Under the pieces are notes generated by a model, which saw only the letters and a list, made by a program, of their open reading frames with translations, searched no databases and had not been told where the DNA came from. A stretch of DNA of 64,000 nucleotides from Amphiscolops sp. MND2022 (Eukaryota), in contig OZ076409.1 in NCBI GenBank assembly GCA_964187785.1, positions 18,974,001 to 19,038,000 of the forward strand, in the 5' to 3' direction. The position numbers were made by a program, and so were the translations under genes. Below, piece by piece: positions 43,001 through 64,000 of the stretch (its first letter is position 1; each line of letters begins with the position of its first letter).

Positions 43001-45215
43001 AAACGTTCTACTAGCAAAGTTAAATGCAAGGAGTTCTACTGACCTTTGATCTGCCATTTGGAGGCAGTGATAGGCTTGTGAGCAATCTAGTTTGCAGAAC
43101 AGCTGCTTCCCCGCTAGATGTTGTGCGACGTCTGAGAGGGTGCTGATGGGGTGGTTGTTGTTTATGTAGTCGTCTGAGATGAGGGCGTTGATCTTCCGTA
43201 AGTCCACTAGGAGCCGCAGTTTGCCGTTTGGTTTGCGTTGCGCGAAGGTGGGGCTTTCATATTTCGAGAATGGGAGAGTTGTGATGATCCCATATTTGTG
43301 CATCAGTGCTAATTCTACTGTGAGGTCGTCTTTGAGGTTGATGGGTACGGGGAGACTCTGGTTGTATACCGGTTTGTCGTTTTTGGGGGTTAGGCATACC
43401 TTGAACTGGTTGTTCATTCCGATGTCAAGTCGGTGGCGTGCAAAGATGTCCTTGAATTCGACTAGGGTGGACTCTAGGTTTTCACGGTCTTCTCCCGTTA
43501 TTAGCGAATCATTCCATTTGAATAGTGAAAGGAATTGTGATCTGGATTTTTCGTCTTGTTTGGGGTCCAGTTCTTCTAATCTTTGTAGTTCGCGTAGTTC
43601 TCCCAGAATGCGTTGTTGGATGGGTGTGTGTTCCGATTCATCTCCGGGATTTTCGGGAGTTGGGAACCAGAATTTCTCTTCTGTTTGTTCTGACGAGTCA
43701 ACTTGCATCAGTGCATTAACGTACGCAACAACATCGTCGTGTTCGGTGAGTAGATTGAGGGCTGCTATATCTACTGCTCGTATCGATTGCGTTTCTTCAG
43801 GTTTCAGTATTTGTAATTCTGCTAGTTTCGTATGTGGTGTTACTGTATAGGGAAAGTCTGTGGTGTTCGCTATCTTTATCGCGACTCGTTTTTCTCGGGC
43901 TGTTGTTATTGCTGGGGCTACTATAAGTTTCGCATTTTCGTCGAACTGTGGTAGAGGTTGAACTGTCCCAGATATTGAGTGGTCGTTGCTTGCAGTAATG
44001 TACGCGTGGATGATCTGCGTGGCTTGCGCTGGTATGGTGTGTTTTTCTTCCGTCTTGATAGTGATGGGTTTGGGGTTGCACTTTTGTCTTTTGTCCTTTA
44101 GGGCTAGAGTGATTTGTATTTTTGGAAAGTCGATTGTTCCTTGTGTAGTATCTAGGATTGCGGAATGTTTCCGAAGGAATGCCAGGCCGATGATTGGGTA
44201 CGATGTTTTGGTCATGATGATGAAGGTCTCTTCGAACGCGTAGTGACCGATTTTGAACTGCATTGTGTATGTCGCGCGGGCTTTTTCAAGTTCGGTGTTG
44301 GCATATTGTATCTTGAAAGGGGGCGGAGGTGCCTTCGCGATTATGGTTGCGTTGGCTTCAGTTTGTATTTTGTCTGCGTCTCTTTCGCTGATGACGTTGA
44401 TGTAGGCTCCCGAGTCAACCAGTGCATCAATTCTAGTGTTTTCAAAGTCAAGAGGAATAAAGAGCATTCTTTTCTTCTTTTTGAGGGTAATTGCTGACAT
44501 TAACGGAGTGTAGTCGTCGTCTTTGTCAAGTTGTATGAATTCTTTTATGATATTGAGGTCATATGGCAGTTGTTGTGGGCATTCCGTTACTTCGTCGTCT
44601 TCATGATTGCTGTCCTGAGTTGGCAATTCGGGTGCTGTTGTTGGGGGTGATACTGTTTGATCGGCTTTCCTGCGCTGTTTTTTTTCTTGTTGTGTCCATA
44701 TTGTTTTATCCTCGATGCAGATGATATTCTCTGTATCTATTGGTGGGGACGTGGTGGTGACGGGTATTGGTGGGGACTGTGTTGTCTTTTTTAGGATTGG
44801 TGACGGTGGTGATGGTAAGATTGTCCTCTCGGTGAGTTGGGCTTGAGGATTTGAAACTTGAATTTTGAAAGAGAGTTTGTTTGTGTCATAGATGGTTGGT
44901 TCGTCCCAGGGATAAACATCTATAGTCTTTATCATATATGTAAATGCGCTCGGTCTTTGATTCTGGGAGGGGTCTCTTCAGTGTCGCGTAGTTATCGGGT
45001 GATTCTGTTATCCATTGGGGTAGTGGTGTTGGATCCTCTGGGTGTCGGGCACTGTGTCTAAGTATCATGCCTACGTTCCAACGACGTTGCCAGTCTTGGG
45101 TGGGTTCCTCATTGCATTCTGTGAGGATGTCTTCTTCATACCTATTTGTGGGGTCTTTTATTGTGTACGCCCTTGCGTCTACCGTTTCCCCGAAGCAGAG
45201 GCGCGGCGTTCTTAG
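40008..45215 (-). pseudogene. pol: pol polyprotein (aspartic protease, RT, RNase H, integrase) with several frameshifts and stops
   Basis: ALVDSGA; KPNGKLRLLVDLRKIN; KLDCSQAYH; NVDDI (YxDD altered); MTDAS; H2C2 finger CPDC; TDKGSQF; ERTHASLK; WTGPY. Confidence 0.93.
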
Positions 45216-46624
45216 TTTTTTGGCTGGATTTCAATAGAAGGGATTGGTTGTTCGCTAATTTGGTTTGTGGGTATGGCGAACTCGTGTCGTTTCTTCCTAG
45301 GGTCGTCCGCCGCATTAGCTCTGTACCAGCAGTTCTCAGTTTTGTGGAGCTTTCCACAAGTGTCGCATTTTGGTTTGGGTGGTTCATTGGTGTTGGGAAT
45401 GCCGTTCTGTGCTTTAGTTTCGTAGTAGCGATCTTTTCGTAATTTGCGGCACTGTGCTTTATAATGCCCCTGTTTGCCACAGTGGAAGCAGTTTCCTCGA
45501 TGGTTGAGTTCCTTTTTTGGTTCCGGTGGGACAACGTCGACCGTATTTAGTGGGACTAGCGTGGTTTCGTCTGGGGTTCCCAGACCATTAAGGCTCATCT
45601 CTCGTTCAAGATGTAGGACAATGTCGTTATAGGGTTTGTCCTCGAGGTAGGCTCGGTTAAGAATCTTTTTGACGTGGTCCGGCATTTTGGCGTATATGGC
45701 CTTGTCTATAAACTTTTGTGCCTCTGAGCCGAACGCTTCTTTAGCCGTTTTTTGCAGTGTGTCCAAAAATTCAAGTAACTTTTGCTTGGTTGGGTCAAAA
45801 TGTAGCGAGTCCCATTCGCATCTCGCCTTGGCCGAAGGTTGAAAATCTCCGAAGCGTCGTTTAAACGCTGTAAGTACCTCCTCTAAGTTATCTTTTTTGG
45901 CATCGTCTAAGTTGCAGTATGCTTGTAGTGCAATGCCTCGTAGTAGCGAGTGAAAGTAGTTGATTTTTTGAATTTCTGTTAGATGTGGGTACATTTTTAT
46001 ATTGTTTCGGAATAAATCCTCGAAAAGTTCGAATTCTTTGGACTTACCATCAAATCCAGGTAGAGATGCGGTGAGGGCTTTTGGCATTGAAGGAGGTTGA
46101 GGTGGTGGATGGATTTCCGGCTGAGGAGCGAATAGTAGTCTTGATGTCGAGGGTCGTTCGTTGGGTGGCAGGCTTTGTGGACGGTGTGGTCGCGTCTTCT
46201 TTTTCCCCAGATTTGTGGAGTCATTGAGGACTCCTGTCACAATGTTACGACTATTCACCGGTGTAATTTTACGATTAGTCGCAGTGGTTTTATTTTTGAT
46301 CGGTGTTGAAGATGCATTTTCCGGAATGTTTTCGGATTCAGAATCTGTTTCTCCAGTAGCTGTTATGATGGTTTGCTTTTTAACAGGAGGAGCTATTAGT
46401 TTTAGCATCTCCTTTTAGTTTTCAGCTAAGATTTTAGTAAGATCAGAAATGATCTCTTTCCTCAATGAAGACTTGATTTCCTCTAGATTTTCAGTGAGTA
46501 CTCTAGGAGATTTGCTCGTTCCCGCTACGGGATTTAAGTTTTGGCTAGTCGCAGGTATCGGGGTCTCAATTTCAGTAGAAACTAATTCTTCAACAGCTTT
46601 TCTCTTCTGGCTTTTAGTAGTCAT
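45212..46624 (-). pseudogene. gag: gag, starting inside the 5' LTR; one nonsense codon at 46415-46417
   Basis: MTTKSQKRK..., FDGKSKEFELFEDLF, knuckles CFHCGKQGHYKAQC and CDTCGKLHKTENC. The 3' LTR copy has CAA where this copy has TAA. Confidence 0.9.
46230..46242 (-). promoter_or_regulatory. Putative primer-binding site, tRNA-Leu-like
   Basis: TTGTGACAGGAGT immediately follows the 5' LTR end and is close to the complement of a tRNA-Leu 3' end (TGGTGTCAGGAGT). The host tRNA sequence is not available here. Confidence 0.5.
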
Positions 46625-48417
46625 TTTAGAGAGAGAGAGAGGTTGTTCTTTGGAAAACTCGAATTCTTCAAAGAAATATGGTTTTCAGAAACAAAGTATC
46701 AACGTAGCAAATTAAAAAACAGATTTACTTATTTTACAAATCCCTAGGTATGTATACATTTACAGCATCATTTGTTCCTCACCTAAAAAGTCCTAGGAAT
46801 CCTTAAAATCGGTTTTGTTCATCAAAATTGCTTAATCATCCCTATTATTTCAACCCTTCAATTAATTGTTCACGATTTAAAATTCCTAGTCACGGCTCCC
46901 TTACGGAGTGCTTGTTGAAATCATTTTTGTTCATTATGATCATTTCCGGTTTGATCGCGGAAAAGGCGGCAAAATGAAAGTCTAGTTGAATTTTCATCGA
47001 GAAAGGCTCGCTGGCGTGATCAATGATTCATCTCGAGACTAGTGAAAACCGTCCGTTCGCGGTAAAAGAATGACAAGCAAAACTGACTACGGAAATATCT
47101 CGGAGTGATTTTGGATAAAGGTGCTGAGAATATCTTGAAAAGAACAAATGATGCTGGAGAAACGGTTAATACCGATCAAGAACTGAGATAGCAAATAATA
47201 TATTACGGAATCATTCTGAGCTTCTGAACTAATTTTACATGTATAGAAACATAATGGTTTGGTTAATACAGGTCAATGGCTTATTTAGCCCAATGAACAT
47301 AACGTAATAAATGTACGAAACACCCTTTTCCAAACTGAAGGAAAGCACCTTTTTTTATCTGTTTCTTTTGTTTTAACCTGTAGTACGATCATTTTGATTA
47401 GTTATTAAACTGGAATAATTCGGAAAGGTATTATTTTAATGTTATGATATTTTGAACATTCCTTTTCGGTTCCGTATGGCATGAGGAATATCTTGATATA
47501 TTAAAACAATTTTGACCTTGCAGTTTTTCCTTTAGTCGTTCTATATGTTCTTTATGTATGTTCTATATGTTCTATATGTTCTATATTAGTCGTTCTATAT
47601 TAACATTAGGCATAACCTTGTCATTTTACAGTTTGCTCCGTAAGCGCTCCGTACGTATTAAGACTAGGTATAGTTTCATCGCTTTACAATTTGCTCCGTA
47701 AGCGCTTCGTACGTATTAAGATTAGGTATAGCTGAGCAGCACTTGCTTGTGGAGACAGAGCGGACAGCATTAACAAAGTCATTCTTATTCTCTCGCTCAA
47801 TTGGCGTTGCTATGGTAACTAGGGATGGTGAAAGACGACGCTATTAGTCCGTAAAAATAGAAACATCTACTCTTCAATCAAGCTGAGTGACGCCGTCATA
47901 ACGTTGTAAACATTCTCTTAAGTTGCTTAACTGCATTCTTAAGGGGATATTCACAACTATTCAATCATTGGAAAACAATTCCGCCATTCTCTTTGTATGT
48001 TCTTTCATTTTAGATTGTATGAATTCCGTTGGGACCTCGGAATTGAATTTCATTTTGATGTTTTCATGTCAGTGTGAAAAAAAGGTCCTAAAGTTAAGAA
48101 TGTTTTTATCTTGTTGTTCAGATTTGTATGGAATTTTCAGCTGACGAAATCGGAAGTAACAGAACGGTTACGCATGAAAACTTTATACCGGAAGTTTCGT
48201 TCCGTCTAAAATCACTTTTGTATATTTTACGTATCGCTTTCGTTAGACTAAAATCCTTTCGTTCTGATTATTAACTCGTACTACAGTTAAACAAAGGTAA
48301 GTGGTCAGTCAAAGTTTTTTACCTAATTTTGTGAGGTATTGCCATGTCCTCGCCCTCTTGCAAATTTCGGTATTCCTCCGCAACAGGAAAATTCCCGACC
48401 GGGAGCGGGTCGTGACA
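46243..48417 (-). repeat. 5' LTR (2175 bp)
   Basis: Direct repeat of 32725-34855, differing by scattered substitutions and a TTCTATATG-type expansion near 47540-47600. Confidence 0.93.
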
Positions 48418-49974
48418 CTGCGTTCGCAAGATTGTAATAGTGATAGAAAAAAATTCAAGGACTTAGCATAACATAAGCTAGAAAGAAAATCGCTCCCAAC
48501 GATTCATACCTATAGCTGATACCTAATTGTCCTTTAATTTGCTAAGTAAATAAAGTTTCTACATTTGCTTGATGGTGGGGTAACCACAAAGTTTTTCTTC
48601 CAGGTCAATAGGTAGACTTTTCCAGGGATCTGCCATTTTTTGAAAATTTGTTTCTTGGAAACTTTTCTTTACTTGTTGAAAGTCTCTGAAATCTAAAAGA
48701 TGCCGAACTGGTAAGGCATTGTAAGATCTGGACAGATTCAGTCTGGAAAAGAACGTCTTGTTATAATTCAATCCAGTCAGATGAGTTTCCGCAAAAAAAT
48801 CTCGTGCAACAAGGAATCGAAAACTTTAGACCAATCCAAAATTGCCGCAGCTACCAAGTCGTTTCCATAATTTGACTGCAGTGAATATTGCATCTATTGC
48901 TAATGAAATAATTCTGAAAGCAGATTGGATGTCACTTAAGACATATGTCTAGCTCAAAAAATCAAGAAATCAATCATTCAGCTGCGCAAATCAAAACTAT
49001 TTCAAAGACGTTAAGGAGAGATGTTGTTTTTAGTCGGCGCCTTTTCCCTTAAGGAAAAAAGCCCGACTCTTACAGTGAGTAGTTTTTTTTTTCAGTTGAC
49101 AATCTCACTCTGAGTGGTCCACTTTTCTTACAATTTTTGTTCATCTTTCATATTTGTTCATCTTTCATCTTCGACCCAGCCGGAGAGCGTGGGTTCGAAT
49201 CCCGCACTAAACCATAAATTTTTTAATGAGTTTTTCGGCATTGTGCGACCTAAAAAATACTTTTTTTCGAAAAAAAATCAAAATTTTTTTTGAAAAAAAA
49301 ATTTTTTCCAAATTTTTCCAATAGTTGTTCCTTGAATATTTTTGAGCCTAAGATATGGCGCCGACTTGGGACGTTCCCGTCTTGTTGAAACTTATCTACA
49401 GTAGTTTATTGAATCCTCTTGGTCTCTTTCGTAATAAAATGGTCTTACGTTGGACAAATTAAGGAGGGTTGGAACTTTTTCTTCAACAATAAAGTTCTGA
49501 GTAGTATACGAATTGCCGATCCTGATATAGCCAGTCAATAACCTAAGCATATTTTCAAATAAATCATCAAGAGTACCGTTTTTTACAATAAAAATTAACA
49601 GATAAAAAATTACCATTTTTACAAAAAAACTTAATCCGTCAGCCAGACCATCAAAAATAGGTATTTTTTCAAATAAATCACTAAAAGTGCCGTTTTTCAC
49701 AACATAATAGTCAATGAACAAAATTTCTCATTTCGCAAAGCGGCTTCGGTGAAAATGTTTGCCACAAGGAAAAGTTCACTAACCTGCATGTATTCGAAGC
49801 CAGCTCTGCTGTATGGTAATATAGAAAAATTGTGTAGGAGAAATGAAAAGTGTAACATGTGCAATTCAATTCAATTCATTTGCAATGTGCAGTGAAGTGT
49901 CATTGACATTTCACACTCGAGAAACATGCGAAGCCAGCTTTGCTGTATGAAAGAAAAATCAAAGTAAATTTGCC

Positions 49975-50260
49975 AAAATTCGTGCCAGCTTGGCAAAACT
50001 TCGAAAATAATTTTTTGGCTCTTTTTTGCAACCGTTGAGAAGGAAGTTGTTCTAGTTCTTGTAAGTTATTAATCCATGGGAAAATATAATTTGCTCAATA
50101 TCTCAGCGGGAGAGGGTTTTAGAGAAAGTCCACTGAAACAAAAGTTGTAGATAATTAAAAGATACACACATGCAAAGCCGGCGTTGCTGTATTTTACTTC
50201 TGAACGTTTTCTCTAAACTTAACCCACTAATTACCAGGTGCCAAAATAGGTGTGAAAAAT
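49975..50260 (+). repeat. Left terminal inverted repeat of the Polinton
   Basis: Reverse complement of 63595-63925, e.g. GTTCTAGTTCTTGTAAGTTATTAAT and TAATTACCAGGTGCCAAAA. Confidence 0.88.
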
Positions 50261-50304
50261 GGGTTTTTCTCATTTTTCTCGAGACTACTTGAAAGAATTT
50301 ATAT

Positions 50305-53300
50305 ATGCCTCTATCAGATAAAGAGATATCAGATAAAGATATCACTTTTAAGTTCAGATGATCACAAGAATAAAACTAAACAACTACTTGTTTGGTGTGA
50401 AGATTTTGGTAACTATACTTCTGATAAAACAAGACATTTCCAAAGTGAAATACATTTACCGAAAAGACAACAAACTAATTTTAATCAAGGTACGCAGTCC
50501 GGTATGCGAAGCACCTCCGGTGTAAAATTGATTGTGAATGGAAAAACTTTAATGAAACTTGAAATAAATCCAAATATGAATAATCTTGAATATCACATAA
50601 ATGAATTACTTAGTAAAATATACTTTTCCCGATATAAAAATCAATTGAGTTATTTGGCTAAGTTTATAAAACACATCAACGGAGAAGAAAGTGTATTTCA
50701 CAAATGGGTAAAATCAGAAATAAATTATAATTACTCTAGTGATTAATTTTCATTTCATAACACAATAACACAGAAATTAGATGATGAACAATTGAAGGAT
50801 CAGATTTCCAATTTCAAGAAATAGAAGAAGCCGTATTAGAAATATATGAAGTTATTGATAATAAAGCATCTTCATGTATTGAATTACCACCAAGGTATAA
50901 GAATAGCCAATCAATTATAAAAATAAAAAATGATGATCAATTATGTCTTTTGTGGTGTCTATGAGCACATTTATTTCCAGTTGAGGACAATACATATAAA
51001 ATATTAAAATATGTTTTTCATATGTCTACTTTGTGTTTGGAAGATTTAGAACTCCTAATGAAAGTTAAAGATATTTCTAAGTTTGAAAGACTTAATAGAA
51101 TAAATATAAGTGTAATTGAACTAAACGGAACAGTTTTAACACCAGTGTACATTAACAAAAGTTACTTGCAACCACAAAAAGATTTGTTTTTGTATGAAAG
51201 TCACTTTTGTCTCATATTAAAGTTGCATTCTTTAATTAATAATAATTCACACATGAACCATGTATGAAAAAGATGTTTAACGGCATTTAGTTCAGAACTG
51301 GTTCTAATTGATCATATAGAAAGATGTATAAAACAGCAATCAACTAAAATCAGTGTCAGTTGAATGGATCATCTAATGTTTGAAGACCACCACATGAAAA
51401 TACCTTTACCAAAAAGAGTATATGCAGATTTTGAATGTTCCAATCAACCCCAAAAATATCCACATAATCCCAACGTGTTGTTCAAACAAATACCTAATAC
51501 AGTAGGATTTCATCTAATTTCACTATTTGGAAACAAGTATTACCCACACTTCGGCGAAGGTTGTGTAAAATGGTTTGTAAATGAAATGTTGACACTAAAA
51601 AAATTGCATCGGAATATTTTAAATCAATTTTACCACTACATAAACTCCTCAAGAAGAAGTAAAAATCCAACAATCCAACGTGTGTTGGTTATGTGAAGAG
51701 CCTTTTTCACAAAACACAGCAACGCTGGCTTGGCATATAGATAAAGTTCGAGACCACGATCATCTAACAGGACAATACAGAGGGGCAGCCCATTCTAATT
51801 GTAATGTAAATGTAAAACAAAAACTATCAAAATTTGTTCCCATATTTTTCCACAACTTCTCTGGGTATGATTGTCATCTTATATTTTAACAACTCTTAAC
51901 ACAAGCTTTCAAAATGGGGAATTGTTTAGGTTTTCTAGACTCATACCGTTTTCTTTCATCTAGTTTGGATAAATTAGTTAGGAGTACAAACAGTTTCCCA
52001 ATAACACAAAGTCCCTTTGGAATGGATGAAAATTGTCTTGATGATGAATTATTAAAAAAGAAATTGGCCTATCCTTATGAATACTTTACGCAAAGTGCCT
52101 TCGGTAATTTTCAAGAACCATTAATTCTAACAAAAGAAGACTTTTGGTCAACACTAAAACAAAAAACCCCTTCAGATGAAGAAGTTGACTGTACACAAGA
52201 AATTTTTAAAAAGTTTAATACAAAGAATGGACAAAATTTAAATACGTTATACTTGAAAATGGATGCTCTACAATTAGCTGAAGTCTTTGAGAATTTTGTG
52301 CAAACATCCACTGAAGAGTACGGCATCAATCCATTATACTCATACTTAACTCCTGGATATTCGTGGAAAACTGGTTTAAAAATGACCAAAATCAAATTAG
52401 ATTTTATAAAAGACAAAAATTATTATCACTTTTAGAAAATATTATACGTGGGGAATTTCAAGTGTTATGGGTGATTGGCATGTTGTATCGGCTGTCATCA
52501 AACAAACCTTATACACTGATGCAAATAATCTATTTGGATAGGCTTTGAGTCAATACCTTCCTACTGGCCAATTCGAAAAATTACCTTTTAATCCGAATAA
52601 CTACACGCAAAGCGCCTCCGGTAAAAATAGTTATAATCAACAGCCATTAGTGAAAGATTTATTACAAATACCACATGATAATGAATGTGCATTTTTTACA
52701 CAATTTGATTTAGAATATCCACGAAATATGAAAGAAAAAAGTAAAATTTTTCTTCATGTCCATATCAAGTAGAAACTAATTGTCAGTTAAATTTCAGATT
52801 ATATGAATTTTGTTAAACAACCGAAATCCAAACCAACCCAGAAGCTTGCGTGTGACCTAACAAACAAACAAAATTTTTAATACACTACAGGATGTTCAAA
52901 TTTTACATCAACATGGGTATGAAAGTAACAAAGGTACATACAATCTACCGCTTCAAACAAAGTAAATGGTTAGTAAAATACATTAATCATAACATCCAAA
53001 AACGCATCAAAGCAAAACCAAACGTTGAAAAAGACCTGTACAAATTAAGGAAGAATGCTTTCTTTGGGAAGACTATAGAAAATGTAAGAGTTACAACTAA
53101 TCTAGAATTCATTGATCCTTCTCAATTAGACCAAATAACAAAAAGACAATCCAAAGTAAGTTTCAAAGGAATCATTAACTTGTATGAAAACGTTAGTGTG
53201 GACAAGTTTGATAAGGAAAAAACAGTTTCTGATGAACCAATTTATTTGGAATTCTCTGTGCTAGAATTGAGTAAACTCTTAATGTATGAATTGTAATATC

Positions 53301-53810
53301 ATACTTCCTACTATCAACCATATAGGCAAAGTAAAGTATATGGATTATGACAACCATATTATTGTTTTATCAACCATATTGGCAAAATAAAGTATATGGA
53401 TTATGACAGTTTTGTTCTTAGCTTTGATACAAACAACCAACATTTGTTAGAGTTTCAACAACAAAACAAAGATGAATTTGATTTCAGTGAATTAGATAAA
53501 TCCAATGAATTATATAATCCTAATAATGAAAAAATTATAGGAAAAATGAAATTGAAACAAGTCCAGTAGTAGTAAGAGGTAGCTTCACAGCTTTACGATC
53601 AAAATCATATTCTTTTTCATACAAAGCTATTCGACAAGCAAAACAAAAAGGACTACAAAAACCCCCGAATGTGAAGATTATATCCGATGTTTGTTCATTT
53701 CTAAAACAACAAATGCAACAATTTATTCAATTCGTTCAAACTCACATCAATTATCAGTTGAAAAACAAAACAAACTAGTTTTGAATCTGTTTGATGATAA
53801 ACGTATGTAA
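50305..53810 (+). pseudogene. Protein-primed family B DNA polymerase with an inserted endonuclease VII-like domain
   Basis: SSCIELP..IKNDDQLCLLWC; VYADFEC (ExoI); CWLC..VRDHDHLTGQYRGAAHSNCN; FHNFSGYD (ExoII); FLDSYRF; YPYEY; YLKMD (ExoIII); DANNL (motif A); KLRKNAFFGK (B); YMDYDSF (C); LRSKSY; FDDKR. Confidence 0.92.
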
Positions 53811-54126
53811 CAAGTCGATTGTCCATGTTTATATTGTTTGAAGTTTATACTTTTAAATCATGAAGAATTAACTAAAAATAAAAAAGATGAAGATTTTTTT
53901 ATACATGGTATTGGAAAGAAAATTTAACTAACCCATCAACAGTTTTAAAATTGATAAGTGATCGAGCACATCTTTTATAATTTTAAATCTTTTAAAATAT
54001 ATTTTTCAAATAAGGAATCTCTGATATCATTATTTGATATGTATATTTTATTTTAATCATTCAAATATTATATTTTCATCATTTATTTATAAATATTATA
54101 ATTTCAACAATTTTATACAAATTTGT

Positions 54127-55440
54127 TTATACTAAATCGAAATGCTTTTGTCCATCACTACTAATACCTATCAGCTTGGGTGATAGTAGAAGGAAATACG
54201 CTATATAGTCTGCTACATTAATGGCATCACTGAAAATAAATTCCAATCTGATAGAATGACTCGCAATAAGATCTTTTCCTTTAGATTAGTCAAATACATA
54301 AAAATCATAACTTGTCAAGGAATTTTGCAAATCAATAAATGACCTCAATAGGTTAGTTTCACTTTTTAACCGATAGAAGGATTCTATTTCTTGATATGCG
54401 TCACAGTAGTTGTTTCTGTCGTTGTCACATTCAATTCCATCAACAAGGATATTTTTTTGATCTTCTAAAAGAAGATCAAAAAAATATCAAACAGCATTTG
54501 AAATATGTAAACGATCAAATATTGAATTATCATGTGTTTACGAATGAATTTTGGTACTAGTTTGAAATCCAACTATTACGAAAGTTGGTGTTGAATCTCC
54601 ACTGTTCCCCAAGTCGAAGGTCCAAATATCATTAGTGTTTACATCTTTTCTAGAAACAATAGGTTCCATGTAATACAATTCAGTTGGATTTTTATTCATT
54701 AACTAATCCATCATAATTTGTTGGTTTTCTGAGCTGGGTGTAAAGTGTGGAATATGCCAACCAATATCTTTCAATATTTTCCAATTTTTGCAGCATCTAC
54801 TCCTGCAGTACGAATGATAGGGTCGTTATTGTTATTTCGTTTTAGAGTAAGGGTATGACCCAAACCATGTGTTACTTCTTTCGTTCAGCAAACCCAAACA
54901 AATCATATAGTTTGATGTTCTTAAAGAATATTCCTTTCTCTGTCTAATTGTTTGCTAGTTCTTGTCTTCTGATAGTGACTGATTCTTCATCAATTCGCTG
55001 GTTTGGTGTTGGGAAGTTAGAAGTTTTTGCATTAAACTTATAATATGTGTATTATCCACTTTTTCCAAATGTTTCCCAGAATTTGTTGTCAGCTTAGCTT
55101 CACTAAATAAAGCAACAGGCCCAAAGTTCACTAGGGCNNNNNNNNNNNNNNNNNNNNNNNNNNNNNNNNNNNNNNNNNNNNNNNNNNNNNNNNNNNNNNN
55201 NNNNNNNNNNNNNNNNNNNNNNNNNNNNNNNNNNNNNNNNNNNNNNNNNNNNNNNNNNNNNNNNNNNNNNNNNNNNNNNNNNNNNNNNNNNNNNNNNNNN
55301 NNNNNNNNNNNNNNNNNNNNNNNNNNNNNNNNNNNNNATTTTTGATTGTAGCTTAACTATTTGGACTATATTTTCTAAAATCAATTTTATGAATAGGTTT
55401 TTCAAGAGCATATTTGATTTTCATTGAAAAAAATTCCATT
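54127..55440 (-). pseudogene. Major capsid protein (double jelly-roll; PY/hexon-like), spanning the N gap
   Basis: Manual translation: KIDFRKYSPNS (N-terminus), DLFGFAE, GHTLTLKRNNNND, IGWHIPHFTPS, PTFVIVGFQT, IFDRLHISNA, NNYCDAYQE, FYVFD, ISSDGQKHFDLV*. Confidence 0.72.
55138..55337. other. Assembly gap (200 N)
   Basis: Run of N. Confidence 1.
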
Positions 55441-55539
55441 TGTTCCAGAAAAAAAATCAATTTTTTAAGTTTATATTCATGTGCGAAGCTTAGAATTTCA
55501 TTCTAATGGTATTTTTACAAAATAAGGTTAGCCTATAAA

Positions 55540-56335
55540 AAGAAACTCAGAATTTAGTTTAGCTTTTTTATTCTTATACACATCGTATGCTTGCTTTAGT
55601 TTGTTGTATACAGTTAGATCTGTTCTATCGTCTTCTAGACACATTGTGTGTAGCTTTTGGAAGTGGTTTAAAGTTCCACCAGCAAGTGTATATTTTTAAA
55701 TATTGTGTTGTCCTTTTCTTTTCAAATACTCACCAATAAGCTTACTGAATATGCATACGCCTGCACCTATACCACTTCTGCACCTATACCACCTATACCA
55801 GCTCCACCAATACTAAAATTCCATCAGTATACTGATTTAAACCGTTTATAAATTTATATGTTACCTTTTCTTGATCAGCAAACCCAAATAAATCACTTAG
55901 TTAGATCTGTTTTATCGTCTTCTAGACACATTGTGTGTAGCTTTTGGAAGTGGTTTAAAGTTCCACCAGCAAGTGTATTTTTTTAAACATTGTGTTGTCC
56001 TTTTCTTTTCAGATACTCCTCAATAAGCTTACTGAATATGCGTACACCTGCACCTATACCACTCCTGCACCTATACCACCTATACCACCTCCACCAATAC
56101 TAAAACTCCATCAGTTTATTGAATTAAACCGTTTATAACTTAATATGTTTTAGATTTCTTTATATACTTTCTATCTTCATCATTATAAAAATTTTAAAAA
56201 TCTTTTATATTTTGAATGGAATTATTAAAACTATTTCTTTTTTTCAATCGTGTATCTAAACCATCTGGATGCGCTTCGCGTGAACTAGGATATACATTTT
56301 CACTCTTTTGTTTTATTTAAAAACTTGTTTTCCAT
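55540..56335 (-). pseudogene. Small glycine-zipper membrane-active protein of the type seen in adintoviruses, with an internal ~250-bp duplication
   Basis: FYNDEDRKYIKK, IGGGGIGGIG..GIGAGV..SKLI and YTLAGGTLNHFQKLHTMCLEDD occur in two copies (about 55612-55860 and 55900-56150). Confidence 0.5.
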
Positions 56336-56379
56336 TTTTATTTATAAAAATATTTACAATTTTAATTTCCATAAAGTAT

Positions 56380-57051
56380 GAAACTAAGCTCAGTTTCAGT
56401 TAGTTCCATTCTATATTTGAGGTCAACAGTATCTTTGTATTCGTCTTTTTACAAGCACTTCACGATATCTTCTCCCGTTGAATAGTCCATGTTTGATAAA
56501 TAACCCACACCATCTGATGACTTTATTTCTGTTCCGAATTTTTCAAGCAAGTATTGGTTTGTAAAGGTCAATTACGACTGGAACATTTGGTCATTATTTT
56601 CAAATGAGTCACACAATCCTTCATTATATAGTAATTGAATAGTATCTTTGACTGCTTCACTTTTACATTTTTCCAGTTCTAAAAAAAGGTCCCTCTGAAA
56701 GTGATTACGTAAAATGGTTTCTTGTTCTTCTACTAACTTGGAAGCATCCAAAATAAATTCTTTCTTCTTTTTTTCTAATATTTTGTTTTCAATATCTTGT
56801 TGTAAATACTTCAAATTTAATTTTATATCTTCTTTGTATTTAGTTATATCTTAGAATATCTTTACATTGACTACTACCTTGGTTTCACCGTCGACAAAAT
56901 TATTTTCTTGTATTTTTTCTAATTTATCAGACATGCCGAAGGTGCTTCGCATATCTTTAAGTTTTATGGTAATTAATTTGGTTTGTGATTCCAATTCTTT
57001 TTCTGAATTCTCATTTTTATCTTTTTGCAAGCTCTCGGCACTAGAACTCAT
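56380..57051 (-). pseudogene. Polinton ORF of unknown function (coiled-coil, Lys/Glu-rich)
   Basis: Track ORFs 56851-57051 and 56572-56814 are collinear; the start lies in a TAAATG context. Confidence 0.4.
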
Positions 57052-57139
57052 TTATGAATTTCCATTTTTTATTTAGGTATAATCACTCAAATTGATGGAA
57101 AATATTCATACTCTCTAACCCTTTCTGGTTATATTCAGA

Positions 57140-57928
57140 GTAGAATACACTTCTTAGAAGTTCGTGTTCATAAAATTTTCCTCGAATAATTTCTCCAATT
57201 TCACCTTCCAGAGTATAAGTTACTGGATTCGTTTAGGTCATTTTATGTGTTTAAAAAAGTTCTCTGTTCCAATTTGTTGTTTAACCTTTAATATATAAAT
57301 TGCGTTTATCAGGAACTCTTACAAATTCTCCCACTTGGAATTAAGGTAAATTACAATTTTTGCAAGGTACTAGACTAGGTATTGGTTTGTCATTACTGGC
57401 TTCAAATGGTGTCATTTTTGTTGTACCATAAACACGATTAGTATATTTTTCCGAAGCAGCGTCAAGATGATTCAACCAACAAGCTTAACCTTCAATATAC
57501 ATTGGTTCTTCGATAAGGTCCAAAAATGTTCAACTGAAGCGTTCAACAAAAACAGCTTTCAAACCTGAATTAGTTGAATAAATTTGAATGTTTAGCTCTT
57601 CAAGAAAATCTAAAAATGTTTTGTTTTAAACTCTTTACCTCTATCTGACCAACTTTTATGAGGTTTTTTTTGCTTTTTCAATAAGACTTTTTCATGCAGT
57701 TGTTGTACTTTTGCCTGATTTACGAGGATTCGCCCATGCATATTTAGTATGGTTATCAATTATTGTGAAAATAAATTTGAAGTGGTTATTGTATTTTGAT
57801 AAGCTAGACCGGTCTATCAGATCAATACTCCAACACCCATCTTTATAGTGAGTTTGTATTTGAACCCTTTGAAGCTTCTTAATTACAGGAGAGAATATTT
57901 CTTTCGCAGTTTCTTTTTTCATATTCAT
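57140..57928 (-). pseudogene. Retroviral-like (rve) integrase of Polinton type
   Basis: WSIDLID, FIFTIIDNHTKYAWA, WSDRGKEF, KAVFVERF, KMTPFEAS, FQVGEFVRV, TNW..ELF, TNPVTY, GKFYEHEL. Confidence 0.88.
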
Positions 57929-58069
57929 TCTTTATTTTGGAATTTTTCACCTAATCGGTGAAACAGCTTCGCTGGCTTCGCATACCGACGGCGCTTCGCG
58001 TAAAGTTTTTATACTGTATCGGAGACGCTTCGCGTTCCGGAGGCGCTCCGGGTATTTTGTTCTTTATAA

Positions 58070-59010
58070 ATGAATAAAAAATTTATATAGGTTTATAATG
58101 TGAATTTTTATTATAATTTTATTATTTTCTCGGTATCATATTAGATCTGGATTTTACAAAAAATCATACCAAAAACCAAGACTATTCACGGGATTTAAAC
58201 ATTTTCCTTTAACTTATCAACCAGAAGAAGAACCCCAATTCAAGCCAATCAGTAATACAAATTGTCATATGTTGATTTAATGTACTAGTAGGTCAGGTAA
58301 GACATCTTTCCTAAAGAATCATTTTGATCAAACTGAATCAATTTTTATAGTATTCGGTAGAGATGAAACTGAGTCTCCTGATAATTATGTAGCTTTGTTG
58401 CAGTTAGAAAACATCAATATTGAATCACTTGCTAATAAAAATATAATTTTAGAAGATGCAGGTGCTTATAAAAAGCCTAAAACAAAAGTAAAGAACTTAT
58501 TACGGTTTGGTAGACATCTTAATATACGAGTTATTCAACTTGCACACTATGCAAATGGTGTTCTCCCAATAAAGAGAGAGAACTGTTTCAGGTTATTTAT
58601 AACAATTACCAACCAAGAGAGTTTCTATGAAACAATTACAAACACATGTTCAATCAAAGATCTCAATTGGAAATATACCACGATCAATTAGAATTCGAAA
58701 TAATTGAATCTGATGCTAGATCGCAAAACTTAAAGATACTCAACCAGAAGTATCAGGTAGTAAATGATACAACTAAACATAAATGAAGTCCCGAGGATTA
58801 TGTAAAATCAGAAAGTTATTTCTTTACTGGTGATAAGTATAACAGATTAACAAAACAAAAGAAACAACTCCTGAGAATGTGGCTTATTATTATGTGGAGT
58901 TTTGTAAACAAAACAAAATGAACGTAAATGAATCTAAAATACACAATTATATAGAGCCTATGCAACAACCACTAATTTGAGACTCACTCAAAAAGGAAGT
59001 TAAGAATATA
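58070..59010 (+). pseudogene. A32/FtsK-like P-loop ATPase 1 with a hydrophobic N-terminus
   Basis: TSRSGKTSFL (Walker A, ~58285), NIILED (Walker B), LLRFGRHLNIRVIQLAH and IKRENC. Confidence 0.7.
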
Positions 59011-59265
59011 ATATTAACTCAGCAAATTAGGTTTAGTCAAAGTGACTAAATATGCTAAAATATATTCAAATAAAATTAATAATACAGCAAAGCTGGCTTC
59101 GCATATATAAATAGAATGAAATTTAATTAAATAATACATAATTTTTTTAAAATAATAGATCTGATATCTTAGTGTTTTTTCATTCACTAGGAGCATATAC
59201 ATGAGCACTAAGCCTATAGGCTACACTTGAAAAGATTTGCTGTTAGTAATTTTTCAATTAAGTAA

Positions 59266-60198
59266 ATGAAGTGTTTAATTTGTGGTGAAAGTAGTGAAAA
59301 GTCGTTATGCGATGATTGTAATAAGAAAAAAAAATGTAAAGAGCGTAGTACACAGAAAACAGATTTTTATAAGTGTAAGAAAAATAAAAAATATAGAACA
59401 TGCAAAGAATGTTTTAACAAAAAACTAAAATGTGAATACTGTGATCGTGAATTCAAAAAAAACGCATGTTTATCAAAACATCTTGAAAATTTTCATTTGA
59501 ATAATAAAATTACAAACAATTTTATAAAAAATAAGGATGATCAAAATAATTTTATGAATAACAATGATGACGAAAGTAATAATAATTTTATAAACAATTT
59601 TATATATAATAGTGAAAATTATAATAATAATAACGAAAAAAACTATGAAAAAACTGAAGGTGCTTTGCATAATAGAACATTAATAGTTGGTCCATCTTTT
59701 TGTGGAAAGACTCATTTTTTTTTGAAAAAATTACAAATAATTCGACTGGATAATCTTGAACAAAAAATACCTATCAGTACGAGAAGTCCTGAACATTATA
59801 CAGGTTTCGAAATAGAAGATGTTTCAGTGGAAGAAGATCCAGAAGATAGAACAATACAAGATTTTCAAAACTGTTGTTTTGTATTTGATGATATGTTGGA
59901 TAGTAATCAAAAACTAATAGTTCCATTTTTACTAGAGGAAGAACAATTAGGAACAACTCGAATAAAATAATTTTATTTCAACAAACCTTAATTGATGTAG
60001 AAGATATTTATAGAGACATAGCTGGGTTTGATACGTTTTATGATGAATTCGAAGAATTATGCAGCGACTCCTGGAAAGAAAAAGATAATTATTTAAAAAT
60101 GAATAGGTGAGAAGATAAAAATGGTAAAAAAATATAGGCTTTGTAGTGAATCTAATCCAGAGTATAAAATCTTTAATCCACAAACTGATCCTTTCTAA
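59266..60198 (+). pseudogene. A32/FtsK-like packaging ATPase 2 fused to N-terminal zinc fingers and an Asn-rich linker
   Basis: CxxC pairs and CEYC..KHLENFH; RTLIVGPSFCGKT; CFVFDDM; frameshifted PFFTRGR; then IILFQQTL..IYRDIAG..EFEELC..W. Confidence 0.8.
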
Positions 60199-61215
60199 TT
60201 GAAAGAGCTTGTGATTTTTTGTTGTTGATTTGTTATTATACATTCATATTCCAGGAGTTCATCAACAATTGCTATGACTTGTTCAATGAGTTTGGGATTA
60301 TCATTTCCTCCTACTTTTTCAAAGTAAAGTAGTTTTAATTGATCTACTAGCTCATCTGGATCAGATGGAAGAAAGATATACAGCAACGCTGGCGTCGCAT
60401 AAATCGGAGAGTTACCCCTACTAGAGGTATACTGATATAATCCACTCCCTAATTGAGGTCGAAATAATTATTTAAAAATTTATATCTACTTGATTTTTTA
60501 TCGCCATAATTCAGATCATATTTCATATCACTCAAAAAGTATAAGTTAAGCCCACGTTTTGTATTTCTCTATCAAATTGTGTTTTAGTTATAAAATACGA
60601 AAGTTCTGGATCATTCAAATTATATGTGTTACCATTCTGGAAAGTGATCGTTGAACCTTTGATTATTACTTGTTGAAGATTAGTATTAGGATTAATCATG
60701 AATAAATTTGGATTACATTCCACGGGATCTAATCTTCGTTGACTTTGGGTGTTGAGGAGGTTAGAAACTATTTTAACGATACTAAAATCGACTTGGTTTG
60801 GATGAACAAGATCTGTAACAAGTTGATTATTACGGTTGGTATTTTCGTTATATTTTTCTATTCCTTCTTTAACTGGTTTTTGTATATTTTCATTTAAAGT
60901 TTTAGTAGATTCTTGAATAGTTTTCGTTATTGTTTGAGAAAAATCTCGCAGTGGTCGGGTTTGCTGGTCAATAGATTGTATTTGATTTTCTGCTTGTTGT
61001 TGAATTTGTTTTGGGCATTGTTTCTGGTTTTCAGTAACGGGTTCAAAAATTTCTTCAATATCGTAATGAAAGTCTTGCTTCCCAAGTTTCTCTTTCAATC
61101 TTTCTTGCCGAGTAGAGATTTTGTTTCTTGCAATATTTTTGCTTTTCTAAATCATCTCGATTGTGAATTGAATACAATTTTTAAAGATAATAATTTTGAT
61201 ATTAAACTTATTTAA
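60195..61215 (-). pseudogene. Conserved Polinton protein (PZ-like)
   Basis: C-terminal IFLPSDPDELVDQLKLL..GGNDN..VIAIVDELLEY and N-terminal LGKQDFHYDIEEIFEPVT, both recurrent in Polintons. The PZ label is from memory. Confidence 0.6.
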
Positions 61216-61219
61216 TGTA

Positions 61220-61624
61220 TCAATTAATGAATTTTAGCCCAATATAAGCCCTTTTTTGATGAACAAATTTTATAAAACCAGGAGCAGTTGCAGCAAAAAG
61301 TTTTAGATTTTTATTTGCTGCTGCAGTACCATTATTTGCCGCTATTTCGAGCGCTCTTCCAGGATTGTTTAATATTTTCTTTCTAACGTTCTTTGCAGCT
61401 TTTCCTTGATGTTTGAAAAAATCACCCAGTCTTTCTGCTTGTATTGTTTGATCTGTTACTAAAGGTGACTTATTTCTTTTACAAGTGGAACAAGTACCTC
61501 TTAATTGTTTAACTGGCAAGCCAAATTTCTTATTTTGCGTAATATCTCCATAAATACTTGTGGTAGCAGAATAATGTTTTCCACCAAGACAATATGAATT
61601 ACATTTAAAGTTATTGAAGCTCAT
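61220..61624 (-). CDS. Small basic virion core-like protein (Zn-ribbon plus amphipathic helix)
   Basis: SYCLGGKH..RGTCSTCKRNKS followed by LGDFFKHQGKAAKNVRKKIL. Confidence 0.55.
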   Translation of the reverse strand: MSFNNFKCNSYCLGGKHYSATTSIYGDITQNKKFGLPVKQLRGTCSTCKRNKSPLVTDQTIQAERLGDFFKHQGKAAKNVRKKILNNPGRALEIAANNGTAAANKNLKLFAATAPGFIKFVHQKRAYIGLKFIN

Positions 61625-61686
61625 TTATTAGAAAAAAAACATTGATTTTTTCTAAGCTTCGCACAAACATTTGGTTTGTATTAGAA

Positions 61687-62728
61687 TTAAATCTTAACAA
61701 TTTGAATTTTAAATGTTATAGTTTTGGAGTTGAAATCAAATGCGTTATGGTTGGAGTCTTCTAGGAAACATTGAATATTATCCAGTCGTGTTTTGTTTTT
61801 TTGATACAAAATAATATTGGGTTCTTTTATAATTTCATATCCAGGAGGTGGGCTTGAATAGAAAGAAAGGGAAATTTGTTCTAGTATACCATTAACAACT
61901 GAACCATCTACACAATCACACTTCAGATTAACTTTGTCTGTGGTTGTAATCATAACTGGTTTTCTGATTTATGAGATCCTGCTGGGTAGTCGGTGTTTGT
62001 AAACCCTAAAACGATGTTAAGTTCAGAATTTAAATGTGTGTTGTTAGAGGTTGTAAAAACAGATTTCATTGACATTGTACCTGCTTGTATGTTGAGTTCA
62101 AAATCAGAATCGGAAAGTATTTGCTTGATGGTAATAGTAATATCAACTAATTCAAAAACTTCTGGTGTTAACTCCATATCAAAGAAATCGTTTTCAATTC
62201 TAAATTCTGGAATATTTAGAGTTGGTGGCATATCTCGCCCTGACTTGGTGGGGAGGGAAGAAGTTTTCGACTGTTGTATTGGCGGTTCGTTATGTTGTTT
62301 AAAAGTTTCAATTGTTTTAACTAGTTGGGTAAACATTTTTCTAGTACGTTTTTTTCTTTTTAGAATAACTATCGACTAAAAATGCATTAGCTTCTTCTAC
62401 AAATTGACTGTAGTTATTACAATTTTTAGACAAATTTGCAAGATTCGATACTAATTCGGTGTCAACTTCAAGTTCTTTAAGTTGATGAATATTCAAGAGA
62501 ATTTCTAGTTTGTTTTTCTTTTCAGTAATATTATAAACTGTATTTATCCATTGTTCTGACAGCTCCAAGGGAACATCGAAAGAAAAGATTCTTTTCGTTT
62601 AGTTATTTTAAATTCTAGAGCTTCCTGAGGTTTTGAATGTGTATTTCCAACAACATTTTGATTAGACTTTGCAATACTCAATAAGAGAGATTCTTTTTAT
62701 CATTAGTTACAAAATTTGATAGATCCAT
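61687..62728 (-). pseudogene. Minor capsid protein (penton-like, PX)
   Basis: N-terminal LLLSIAKS..THSKPQEALEFK..FDVPLEL; NTVYNITEKKNK; LGFTN; C-terminal DKVNLKCDCVDGSVVNG..PPPGYEIIKEP..FLEDSNH..DFN..ITF. Confidence 0.75.
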
Positions 62729-62911
62729 TTAGTAAGAAAAAAATGTTTAAATCCACTAGCGGATATGTTATTTATAAATTCTTGGTTTTGTTTTTATAAT
62801 TGTTTTTTCGGAATACCATTCGGATTCTTTTTATTGTTTCCAATCTCACTCGGATGATATTGTACCGGAGGGCGGCTTCGTTGTATAATTTTAAATTGAG
62901 CTGAGTAATTC

Positions 62912-63290
62912 TTAATTTTCTTCATTCAATATTTCTAAATTTTGATAATATAAATTCAATACTGCATTTTCAAAACCTATTAAATTGGTGAGATATAACA
63001 AATACAAACAATACGCTGCACAATAACTATCCTTTTTCTGAATTTGAAATTCTGAATAAATACCATTATCAATGTGATTGAGTAGGTTAGATGGAGTTGG
63101 GCATCCATTTGAATCAAAATAAAACTTATCAGAAAACTTAACCCAATGTATTCCTTTTGTTGGATGTAAGTTAACTATTCGTGCCGTCATGGCAAAATTA
63201 TCATCTCTCATGTGTATCCCACACGGGATATTTATTTCATTAAGTATTTGTTTTATTTTTACTTTAGAAGTTGCATCAATGTTTAATTCA
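62912..63290 (-). pseudogene. Adenain-like cysteine maturation protease
   Basis: IVNLH..GIHWV (His), FYFDSNG (Asp), QIQ..DSYCAAYCL (Gln, Cys). Confidence 0.85.
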
Positions 63291-63359
63291 TGTTTTCAAC
63301 AATATGATTAAATGATAAAAACACTGGCTTCGCATACCGAAAGCGCTTCGCGTGTTTCA

Positions 63360-63520
63360 TTTAGGAAAAAACTTTGTTGAAATTTTTTTCTCAGCTTTGC
63401 TTCAAGAAAAAAAATTGTTGGAAGTTTTTCTATGCTTTGTTTTAAGAAAAAATTTTTGTTGAATTTTTTTCTAAGCTTTGTTAAAAAAAATTTTGTTGAC
63501 TTTTTCTTCTAAGCTTGGCT
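63360..63520. repeat. Subterminal tandem repeat (~35-40 bp unit, about 4 copies)
   Basis: AAAAAAATTTTGTTGAATTTTTTCTAAGCTTTG-type unit repeated. Confidence 0.6.
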
Positions 63521-63594
63521 TACCGAAGGCGCTTCGCGTGTATTAGTTATTTTTCATCGATTTCAATTTTTTATTTTTGTTATATTGGAAAAAA

Positions 63595-63925
63595 AATTTT
63601 CGCACCTGTTTTGGCACCTGGTAATTAGGGGGTTATTTTTAGAGAAAACGTTCAGAAATAAAATACAGCAACGCTGGCTTCGCATGTGTGTATCTTTTAA
63701 TTATCTACAACTTTTGTTTCTGTGGACTTTCTCTAAAATCCTCTCCCGTTGAGATTTTGAGCAAATTTTAATTTCCCATGTATTAATAACTTACAAGAAC
63801 TAGAACAACTTCATTCTCAACAGCTGCAAAAAGAGCCAAAAAATTGTCAGTGAGAAAAATTTTGCCAAAATTTCTGCCAGCAATTTTATTTTTGCCAAAA
63901 ATTTTGCCAGGTTGGCACAAATTCT
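63595..63925 (-). repeat. Right terminal inverted repeat of the Polinton
   Basis: Inverted match to 49975-50260. Confidence 0.88.
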
Positions 63926-64000
63926 CATTACAGTGCATAGGCAAGCCATTTTGCTGCTTGTCGTGGAATCCGCGACGCGAAAATTCTCATGCTTGTCCGT

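What the first reader, a model, noticed from the sequence alone, without database searches (positions are those of the whole stretch)
49734..63684. Two families of frame-preserving 16/19-bp double-hairpin micro-insertions at TA sites throughout the Polinton
Seen: about 20 GC-rich islets in otherwise very AT-rich DNA, in both orientations. Family A core CAGCAACGCTGGCTTCGCA (19 bp): 49793, 49927, 50171, 51717, 57964, 59085, 60381, 63666, partial ~63323. Family B core CCGAAGGCGCTTCGCG (16 bp): 49734, 50505, 52005, 52089, 52606, 56265, 57985, 58019, 58037, ~62865, 63337, 63523. The best copies have TA on both sides (TA-CGCAAAGTGCCTTCGG-TA at 52087-52106; TA-CAGCAAAGCTGGCTTCGCA-TA at 59083-59105), so core plus one TA adds 18 or 21 nt. 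In pPolB they create extra peptides whose removal gives normal-looking sequence: PYEYF[TQSAFG]NFQ, SFPI[TQSPFG]MDEN, NNY[TQSASG]KN, CEEPFSQN[TATLAWH]IDKVRDHDH. A further copy sits in frame just before the IFLPSDP motif of the PZ-like gene. Copies stack on each other's TA (57964-58002). Each core is two 3-nt-loop hairpins (CC-GAA-GG + CGC-TTC-GCG; CAGC-AAC-GCTG + GC-TTC-GC). Established: d(GCGAAGC) is an exceptionally stable, nuclease-resistant mini-hairpin, and similar selfish inserts are known from fungal mtDNA (double-hairpin elements, GC clusters) and Rickettsia palindromic elements. Inference: a minimal mobile element of a strand-displacing DNA virus, selected to be 3n long, possibly spread via ssDNA intermediates or the element's EndoVII-like domain. 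I know of no description in Polintons.
Basis: partly seen in the sequence, partly recalled or inferred. Interest (0 to 1): 0.9.

Follow-up and report, generated by a model that had tools for sequence, protein, structure and literature searches.

The report
Tiny hairpin DNAs parasitising a Polinton
An integrated DNA virus (a Polinton) in this genome carries mobile inserts only 18 or 21 bases long, each folding into two tiny hairpins, which slip into its genes without breaking the reading frame: a minimal parasite of a virus.

Summary
It sits bluntly between a pyrimidine and a purine, with no target-site duplication: CA, TG and CG targets appear unduplicated in empty copies.

The genome holds 671, 299 and 540 exact copies. 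All 37 sampled clusters lie in one Polinton family, and presence/absence among copies is extensive. The three families are the three pairwise fusions of three half-modules; self-fusions are almost absent.

Selection acted on living virus lineages: none in the major capsid gene (about 27 expected), 82% between codons (44% expected), and inserts inside 12 of 17 long open polymerase frames. A sister subfamily with an intact EndoVII domain is nearly free of them.

Best reading: a non-autonomous element that spreads on single-stranded replication intermediates with its polarity kept, cut beside its hairpins. The enzyme is not shown (EndoVII domain about 35%). It works like mitochondrial double-hairpin elements and GC clusters; five literature searches found no report in Polintons.

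The parts
49500..64000 (.). Decayed Polinton copy; left terminus AGTAGT at 49500, continues past the window end
   Evidence: terminus; inverted arms 50012-50258 / 63597-63843, 91%; A32 ATPase here; rve, DJR capsid and EndoVII in family copies
50252..53810 (+). pPolB gene in pieces (end approximate)
   Evidence: 60-71% identical to 120 listed relatives; model of a relative matches phi29 polymerase
51680..51832 (+). EndoVII-like zinc/HNH motif (CxxC...DHDH...RGAAHxxCN) with an A unit in its loop
   Evidence: (PF02945 in relatives)
49733..49750 (-). B unit, 18 nt, left terminal repeat
49792..49812 (-). A unit, 21 nt
49926..49946 (-). A unit, 21 nt; empty site is T^G in 5 loci with an exact 21-nt deficit (best 23/24 identical)
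50170..50190 (-). A unit, mirror of 63665 in the other terminal repeat; empty site T^G, 8 loci with exact deficit
50504..50521 (-). B unit, abutting a 12-nt B derivative
51716..51736 (+). A unit between codons (TATLAWH), flanks C..A
52003..52021 (-). Decayed B unit (TQSPFG); 8 loci lack exactly 18 nt; register uncertain by 1 nt
52088..52105 (-). B unit (TQSAFG); neighbouring 9-nt loss in this copy
52605..52622 (-). B unit (TQSASG); empty site T^G, 9 loci with exact deficit
56264..56281 (+). Decayed B unit
56935..56952 (+).
57963..58001 (+). Head-to-tail stack A (57963-57983) + B (57984-58001)
58018..58053 (+). Head-to-tail stack B + B
59084..59104 (+). A unit
59653..59670 (+).
60380..60400 (+). 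A unit; empty site mostly T^A
62864..62884 (+).
63321..63353 (+). 15-nt A derivative stacked on a B unit
63522..63539 (+). B unit, flanks T..G
63665..63685 (+). A unit in the right terminal repeat; empty site T^G

Best explanation
A family of minimal non-autonomous mobile DNAs that parasitise this Polinton while it replicates as a virus. SHOWN: each unit is 5'-A, two abutting GC-stem three-base-loop hairpins, T-3'; 18 or 21 nt; made of two different half-modules out of three (X 9 nt, Y 9 nt, Z 12 nt; B = X+Y', A = Z+Y', C = X+Z'). It is inserted bluntly at a symmetric D-Y^R-H step (mostly AT^AT-like) with no duplication, often at the edge or centre of an existing unit and then nearly always in the same orientation. 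Survivors are filtered by protein function. INFERRED: protein-primed strand displacement exposes single strands, where the mini-hairpins fold and resist exonucleases. A structure-guided cut one base outside a hairpin, at a Y^R step, frees or opens the unit, and one strand is joined or copied into another Y^R step of viral DNA in the same replication compartment, keeping its polarity. The most likely cutter is the polymerase's own EndoVII-like domain (about 35%), with pPolB or host repair finishing the join. Length 3n lets the unit survive in a genome that is about 80% coding.
For: Confinement: 37 of 37 sampled clusters are Polinton-homologous; of 389 units, 359 lie in the first Polinton mask, 24 in the extended mask, 4 within 47 nt and 2 within 271 nt of it, with 137 kb of other DNA held. 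Polymorphism: 331 of 444 units align to an empty site; in 20 young copies (89% identical) 34 of 38 unit-overlapping gaps are exactly 18 or 21 nt. No duplication. Symmetric target: -1 T80/C18 against T75/C22, -2 never C on either side, n=55. Structure over sequence: the Z loop varies (AAA 58, TTC 29, AAC 27, TTT 12, AGA 11) on a fixed stem; B pair 9:17 is C-G 108, T-A 42, A-T 3. Self-fusions: 0, 5 and 0 places against 671, 299 and 540. Junction targeting: 74 of 476 units abut another; stacks 38 same against 6 inverted, central nests 16 against 0. Selection on live virus: capsid gene 0 against 26.6 expected, 86 of 105 between codons against 44%, 12 of 17 frames of >=900 codons carry a unit and third positions diverge most. 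EndoVII motif present and conserved. GNA mini-hairpin stability and nuclease resistance: PMC13037366 (passages, section 14).
Against: No enzyme activity was tested. The EndoVII motif is intact in 10 of 10 proteins of a sister subfamily with few units (1 of 16 proteins with a peptide; 0 units in 8 loci of 5.5 kb) and in 92 of 149 distant pPolBs with none. ViennaRNA DNA energies favour the double hairpin only weakly; it is within 0.3-0.7 kcal of a single-hairpin minimum, and the model lacks the GNA bonus. B pair 9:17 is a C-A mismatch in 39 of 202, and C-G to T-A could come from CpG decay. Counts of copies are not independent events. The orientation bias could come from loss of inverted stacks. 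Some 27-nt half-duplications exist (about 4), which fits slippage.
Confidence: 0.6

Rival explanations
1. Pure copy-in by pPolB template switching, no nuclease: the nascent strand ending in a pyrimidine jumps to a unit on a template of the same polarity, copies it, the hairpins loop it out, and synthesis resumes where it left off.
For: Same-orientation stacks and nests; restriction to lineages that already carry donors; 27-nt, 15-nt and 12-nt derivatives; needs no special enzyme.
Against: Only 1 nt of microhomology; exact 18/21-nt ends at 72-90 site clusters; a two-sided symmetric target preference; inner and outer copies of nests often differ in loop.
Confidence: 0.22
2. Phosphotyrosine peel-and-paste by an HUH transposase or a topoisomerase supplied by the host or another element; the excised unit is an 18/21-nt dumbbell circle whose T^A junction is exchanged with a Y^R target.
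For: No duplication, hairpin ends, polarity kept; the circle junction would itself be T^A (inference).
Against: No HUH domain in the 10 family frames other than pPolB that were scanned; IS200/IS605 targets are one-sided (recalled) while this one is symmetric; a host enzyme would not explain confinement to some subfamilies. The host genome was not searched for HUH genes.
Confidence: 0.1
3. The units are functional viral signals (promoter, priming or packaging hairpins) kept by selection.
For: CCGAAGG and GCGGAGC mini-hairpins occur in the ssiA priming signal and N4 promoters (PMC13037366, section 14); non-coding parts are enriched (133 units in 79 kb against 226 in 354 kb).
Against: Positions are scattered and polymorphic (294 site clusters), many inside genes; a young subfamily with long open frames does without them.
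Confidence: 0.04
4. TA-specific Tc1/mariner-type MITE or footprint with a TA duplication, or insertion by the Polinton integrase.
For: TA is the commonest target (49 of 90 best empty sites).
Against: C^A, T^G and C^G targets are not duplicated; ends are not inverted repeats; no 4-6-nt direct repeat seen by eye in 13 longer-gap cases; absent from host DNA.
Confidence: 0.04

Closest known systems
Mitochondrial double-hairpin elements (DHEs) of chytrids and Schizosaccharomyces
   Same: GC-rich, two adjacent hairpins, potentially mobile, no coding capacity (PMC10085805, passages; Paquin 2000 seen only as a citation there).
   Different: DHEs described there are in mitochondrial DNA, intergenic or in rRNA genes, and longer (found with 35-bp windows). 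These are 18-21 nt, in a nuclear DNA virus, mostly in protein genes, with a defined blunt target.
Yeast mitochondrial GC clusters (GC42)
   Same: GC-rich palindromic units in AT-rich DNA, presence/absence polymorphism, conserved stems with variable loops, merger and shuffling of units, endonuclease proposed as helper (PMC4478555, passages).
   Different: GC clusters bear a putative AG target duplication; these have none and are half the size.
Rickettsia palindromic elements
   Same: In-frame insertion adding peptides to proteins (recalled; only a search listing was seen).
   Different: About 100-150 bp (recalled), bacterial chromosome, not virus-confined.
Pithovirus M1/M2 and Pandoravirus MITEs
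   Same: Palindromic repeats that colonise a DNA virus genome and stack next to each other; a junction resolvase was suggested (PMC10664404, passages).
   Different: About 140 nt, true terminal inverted repeats of 47-54 bp, putative TA duplication, non-coding regions.
IS200/IS605, REP/RAYT and Helitron-type HUH elements
   Same: Single-strand hairpin ends, no target duplication (recalled).
   Different: No transposase found; symmetric target; far smaller.

Membership tests
Polinton/Maverick (host element) | pPolB, retroviral-like integrase, A32 ATPase, double jelly-roll capsid, terminal inverted repeats | tested here: met
Tc1/mariner MITE | TA target-site duplication | tested here: not met
   23 of 34 non-TA flank pairs reappear unduplicated in empty sites, 5 are TA
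Tc1/mariner MITE | Terminal inverted repeats | tested here: not met
   Ends are different half-modules; self-fusions 0, 5, 0
Double-hairpin element | Two adjacent GC-rich hairpins | tested here: met
   Loop variation and pair changes; predicted energy only marginal
Double-hairpin element | Presence/absence at homologous sites | tested here: met
Double-hairpin element | Mitochondrial location | tested here: not met
   Nuclear Polinton copies on chromosome-scale contigs
Double-hairpin element | Sequence relationship to known DHE families | not tested
   No DHE sequences were fetched
Yeast GC cluster | AG target duplication | tested here: not met
HUH-mobilised element (IS200/IS605, REP, Helitron) | No target duplication | tested here: met
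HUH-mobilised element (IS200/IS605, REP, Helitron) | Cognate HUH transposase | tested here: inconclusive
   None in the family frames scanned; host genome not searched
HUH-mobilised element (IS200/IS605, REP, Helitron) | One-sided target sequence | tested here: not met
   Symmetric logo, n=55; either strand being mobile could symmetrise it
Polinton-integrase product | About 6-bp target duplication (recalled) | tested here: not met
   Gaps equal unit length; none seen in 13 longer gaps

The most novel reading that the evidence does not exclude
A new class of mobile DNA at the lower size limit: 9-12-nt hairpin half-modules that pair only as unlike couples, are cut out and put back by the junction-resolving EndoVII domain of the viral polymerase, and so give that widespread domain a visible substrate; a heritable parasite of a virus that adds 6-7 residues to protein surfaces.
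Probability: 0.3. Interest if true: 0.9.

Novelty: new variant of a known kind. Interest (0 to 1): 0.74.

Why it matters
How double-hairpin elements and GC clusters move is unresolved (PMC4478555 passages say more evidence is required). Here there are at least 1,500 exact copies, clean filled and empty alleles, exact ends, a target rule and a candidate enzyme in cis, all testable with short oligonucleotides. The empty capsid gene is also independent evidence that these Polintons were under virion-level selection while they spread. The units are natural insertion scans of pPolB, integrase and capsid proteins, and markers for dating subfamilies.

Tried and rejected
TA duplication: rejected. Pairing between the two flanks of a site beyond base composition: none, p>=0.48 at all 7 positions. 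Loop preference on the AlphaFold model of P0017 (pLDDT 85.7): not significant. Other organisms: one exact A hit in metagenomes (61% GC) and one B hit in IMG/VR (70% GC), judged chance from GC alone and not examined further; 41 IMG/VR Polinton-like loci (398,605 nt) gave only scattered weak matches. No sequencing run was listed, which is no evidence. PDB sequence search gave no EndoVII match, only Hpy99I at E=0.73. Earlier scan notes: nothing relevant. Four tandem-array loci (L023, L026, L027, L029) were dropped from the alignment; loci L001-L031 were left out of the catalogues. Supplements were not read.
Full report
OBSERVATION. The region 49,500-64,000 is a decayed Polinton: terminus AGTAGT at 49,500, inverted arms 91% alike, A32 ATPase, and in family copies an rve integrase, a double jelly-roll capsid and a pPolB with Pfam Endonuclease_7. 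The listed islets are there: 9 A matches (<=4 mismatches) and 11 B matches (<=3) against 0 and 0 in the other 49.4 kb, and about 0 in 30 simulations.

DISTRIBUTION. The 1.07-Gb genome holds 299 exact A, 671 exact B and 540 exact C matches; the reversed controls gave 0. I took one stretch for each cluster of A or B hits on contig C1 that was not already held; 37 of 37 are homologous to the window's Polinton. Of 389 catalogued units, 359 fall in the first Polinton mask, 24 more in an extended mask, 4 within 47 nt and 2 within 271 nt of it, while 137 kb of other DNA was held. The extended mask did not hide the units themselves, so tandem arrays may have matched through them. Within the family the load is uneven: 37 of 95 proteins of one subfamily carry a unit peptide, 1 of 16 of a sister subfamily, 5 of 23 others. 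Eight loci of the sister subfamily and two of a distant, 40%-GC Polinton family had none in 5.5 kb each. None of 149 distant pPolBs has a unit peptide of six or more residues, and 41 IMG/VR relatives show only scattered weak matches.

PRESENCE AND ABSENCE. An alignment of 26 pPolB loci shows filled and empty alleles at every site printed, with most gaps of 18, 21, 36 or 39 nt. Of 444 units, 331 align to an empty site; the modal gap is 21 for A and 18 for B. In 20 young copies (89% identical) 34 of 38 unit-overlapping gaps are exactly 18 or 21 nt; the other four are 6 nt.

BOUNDARIES. The TA is not a duplication. Filled CA..TA sites have empty CA in 8 of 12 clusters, CA..TG have CG in 6 of 7, TA..TG have TG in 6 of 10, and TA..TA have TA in 38 of 46. 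In the larger set, 34 clusters have an A...T unit with a non-TA flank pair; the empty site equals that pair in 23 and is TA in 5. The window's own units at 49926, 50170, 52605 and 63665 have T^G empty sites. So the unit is A+core+T, set bluntly between a pyrimidine and a purine. The target is symmetric: -1 is T80/C18% on the left and T75/C22% on the complemented right, and -2 is never C on either side (n=55). Both junctions of a filled site fit this rule again (sequence). No 4-6-nt direct repeat was seen by eye in 13 longer gaps.

ANATOMY. Commonest natural units: B ACCGAAGGCGCTTTGCGT, A ACAGCAAAGCTGGCTTCGCAT, C ACCGGAGGCCAGCAAAGCTGT. They decompose into three halves that each begin with A and hold one three-base-loop hairpin: X (9 nt, CC-GRA-GG), Y (9 nt, GC-RAA-GC) and Z (12 nt, CAGC-NNN-GCTG). 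B is X+Y', A is Z+Y', C is X+Z'. Self-fusions number 0 (XX'), 5 places (YY') and 0 (ZZ'); the three YY' loci fetched are in or within 45 nt of Polinton DNA. Stems are fixed while the Z loop varies, including flipped forms; B pair 9:17 is C-G 108, T-A 42, A-T 3, but also C-A 39 of 202, and CpG decay could contribute. Predicted energies are small and the double hairpin is 0.3-0.7 kcal above a single-hairpin minimum. PMC13037366 (passages, section 14) states that GNA mini-hairpins are far more stable than standard models predict, resist nucleases, and that CCGAAGG occurs in the ssiA priming signal. Derivatives of 12 and 15 nt also keep 3n.

STACKING. 74 of 476 units abut another. After collapsing similar contexts, stacks are 38 same-orientation against 6 inverted. 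B nests in B at the central C^G in 16 copies, none inverted; at 6 or more sites the orthologous position holds a single B. All three cut positions lie one base outside a hairpin (sequence; for A's right end this needs an alternative fold). About four 27-nt half-duplications exist.

SELECTION. The major capsid gene has 0 units in 30 kb against 26.6 expected from the same loci, with normal target density, and 0 in 36 kb of open frame in the larger set. These figures count copies; by site regions my estimate is about 6.5 expected. Integrase units all map at residue 177 or later, past the rve match at 30-120. Of 105 distinct-context units in open frames, 86 lie between codons, against 44% of available targets (p=2e-15). 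Twelve of 17 young polymerase frames of 900 codons or more carry a unit, and mismatches by codon position are 0.065, 0.047 and 0.109. On the model of P0017 (pLDDT 85.7, phi29-like), 13 of 22 sites are at loops against 47% background (p=0.17), and sites are less conserved than average (0.31 against 0.45, p=4e-4). I infer that most units entered while these lineages were replicating and making virions, not after they decayed in the host genome.

MECHANISM. Shown: structure, ends, target, polarity, confinement, selection. Inferred: mobilisation on displaced single strands through a cut beside a hairpin, then joining or copying into a Y^R step. The EndoVII motif is intact in the window and its D-H-x-H and CN residues are conserved; their catalytic role, and junction cleavage by T4 endonuclease VII, are recalled. 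PMC11161782 (passages) notes homing-endonuclease domains inserted in Polinton pPolBs. The domain is not sufficient: it is intact in 10 of 10 proteins of the unit-poor subfamily and 92 of 149 distant proteins. I give 0.6 to the nuclease-assisted single-strand model (about 0.35 for EndoVII itself), 0.22 to pure template switching, 0.10 to an HUH or topoisomerase route, and 0.08 to the rest. That the units are mobile, duplication-free and virus-confined I put at about 0.9.

COMPARISON AND NOVELTY. It works like mitochondrial DHEs (PMC10085805, passages) and yeast GC clusters (PMC4478555, passages), and echoes Pithovirus repeats (PMC10664404, passages) and Rickettsia palindromic elements (recalled; listing only). 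It fails the MITE and GC-cluster duplication tests and is not mitochondrial. PMC7218506 (abstract) concerns A/T palindromes and is not close. Searches (listings and abstract starts) showed no description of such inserts in Polintons; subscription papers and supplements were not covered. Verdict: a real, well-supported new variant of the selfish-hairpin kind, unusual in size, modularity, blunt target and viral host. Interest 0.74.

Noticed in passing
window 42218-46408 (-): Gag-like (398 aa, CCHC knuckles) and pol-like (905 aa, protease/RT) frames of an LTR retrotransposon, by eye Ty3/Gypsy-like (label recalled, not scanned).
   Followed up: no
L031 1685-4004 (just right of the window): The Polinton's right end is present twice; 1,730 nt are 99.5% identical to window 62271-64000. 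Recent tandem duplication or assembly artefact.
   Followed up: partly
window 55138-55337 and 55612-56149: A 200-nt N gap, and a 287-nt-period tandem duplication (94%) next to it.
   Followed up: no
L016, L023, L026, L027, L029 (C4:33.077-33.083 Mb): A pPolB fragment repeated in tandem with a period of about 1.17 kb.
   Followed up: no
L081 8987-9111: Six head-to-tail A units in a 21-nt array; L105 has a 39-nt B+C array.
   Followed up: partly
L180, L183: A second, distant Polinton family (40% GC, 33-37% pPolB identity) in the same genome, with no units in 11 kb.
   Followed up: partly
window 58395-58691 and 59266-59970: The family has two P-loop ATPase-like genes: an A32 packaging ATPase and a zinc-finger-fused one; the second is the most unit-rich large gene.
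   Followed up: partly
P0071 against P0017, P0053, P0067 and others: The same codon junction of pPolB holds a C peptide in many proteins and a B peptide in one: independent insertion, or exchange of one half-module in place.
   Followed up: no
window 47598-47713: A 58-nt tandem pair outside the Polinton with a weak B-like 16-mer (4 mismatches); probably chance.
   Followed up: no
family loci, frame 'orfY' (L096 7486-8022): An unnamed 179-aa gene with 0 units in 12-15 kb, like the capsid gene; possibly a structural protein.
   Followed up: no
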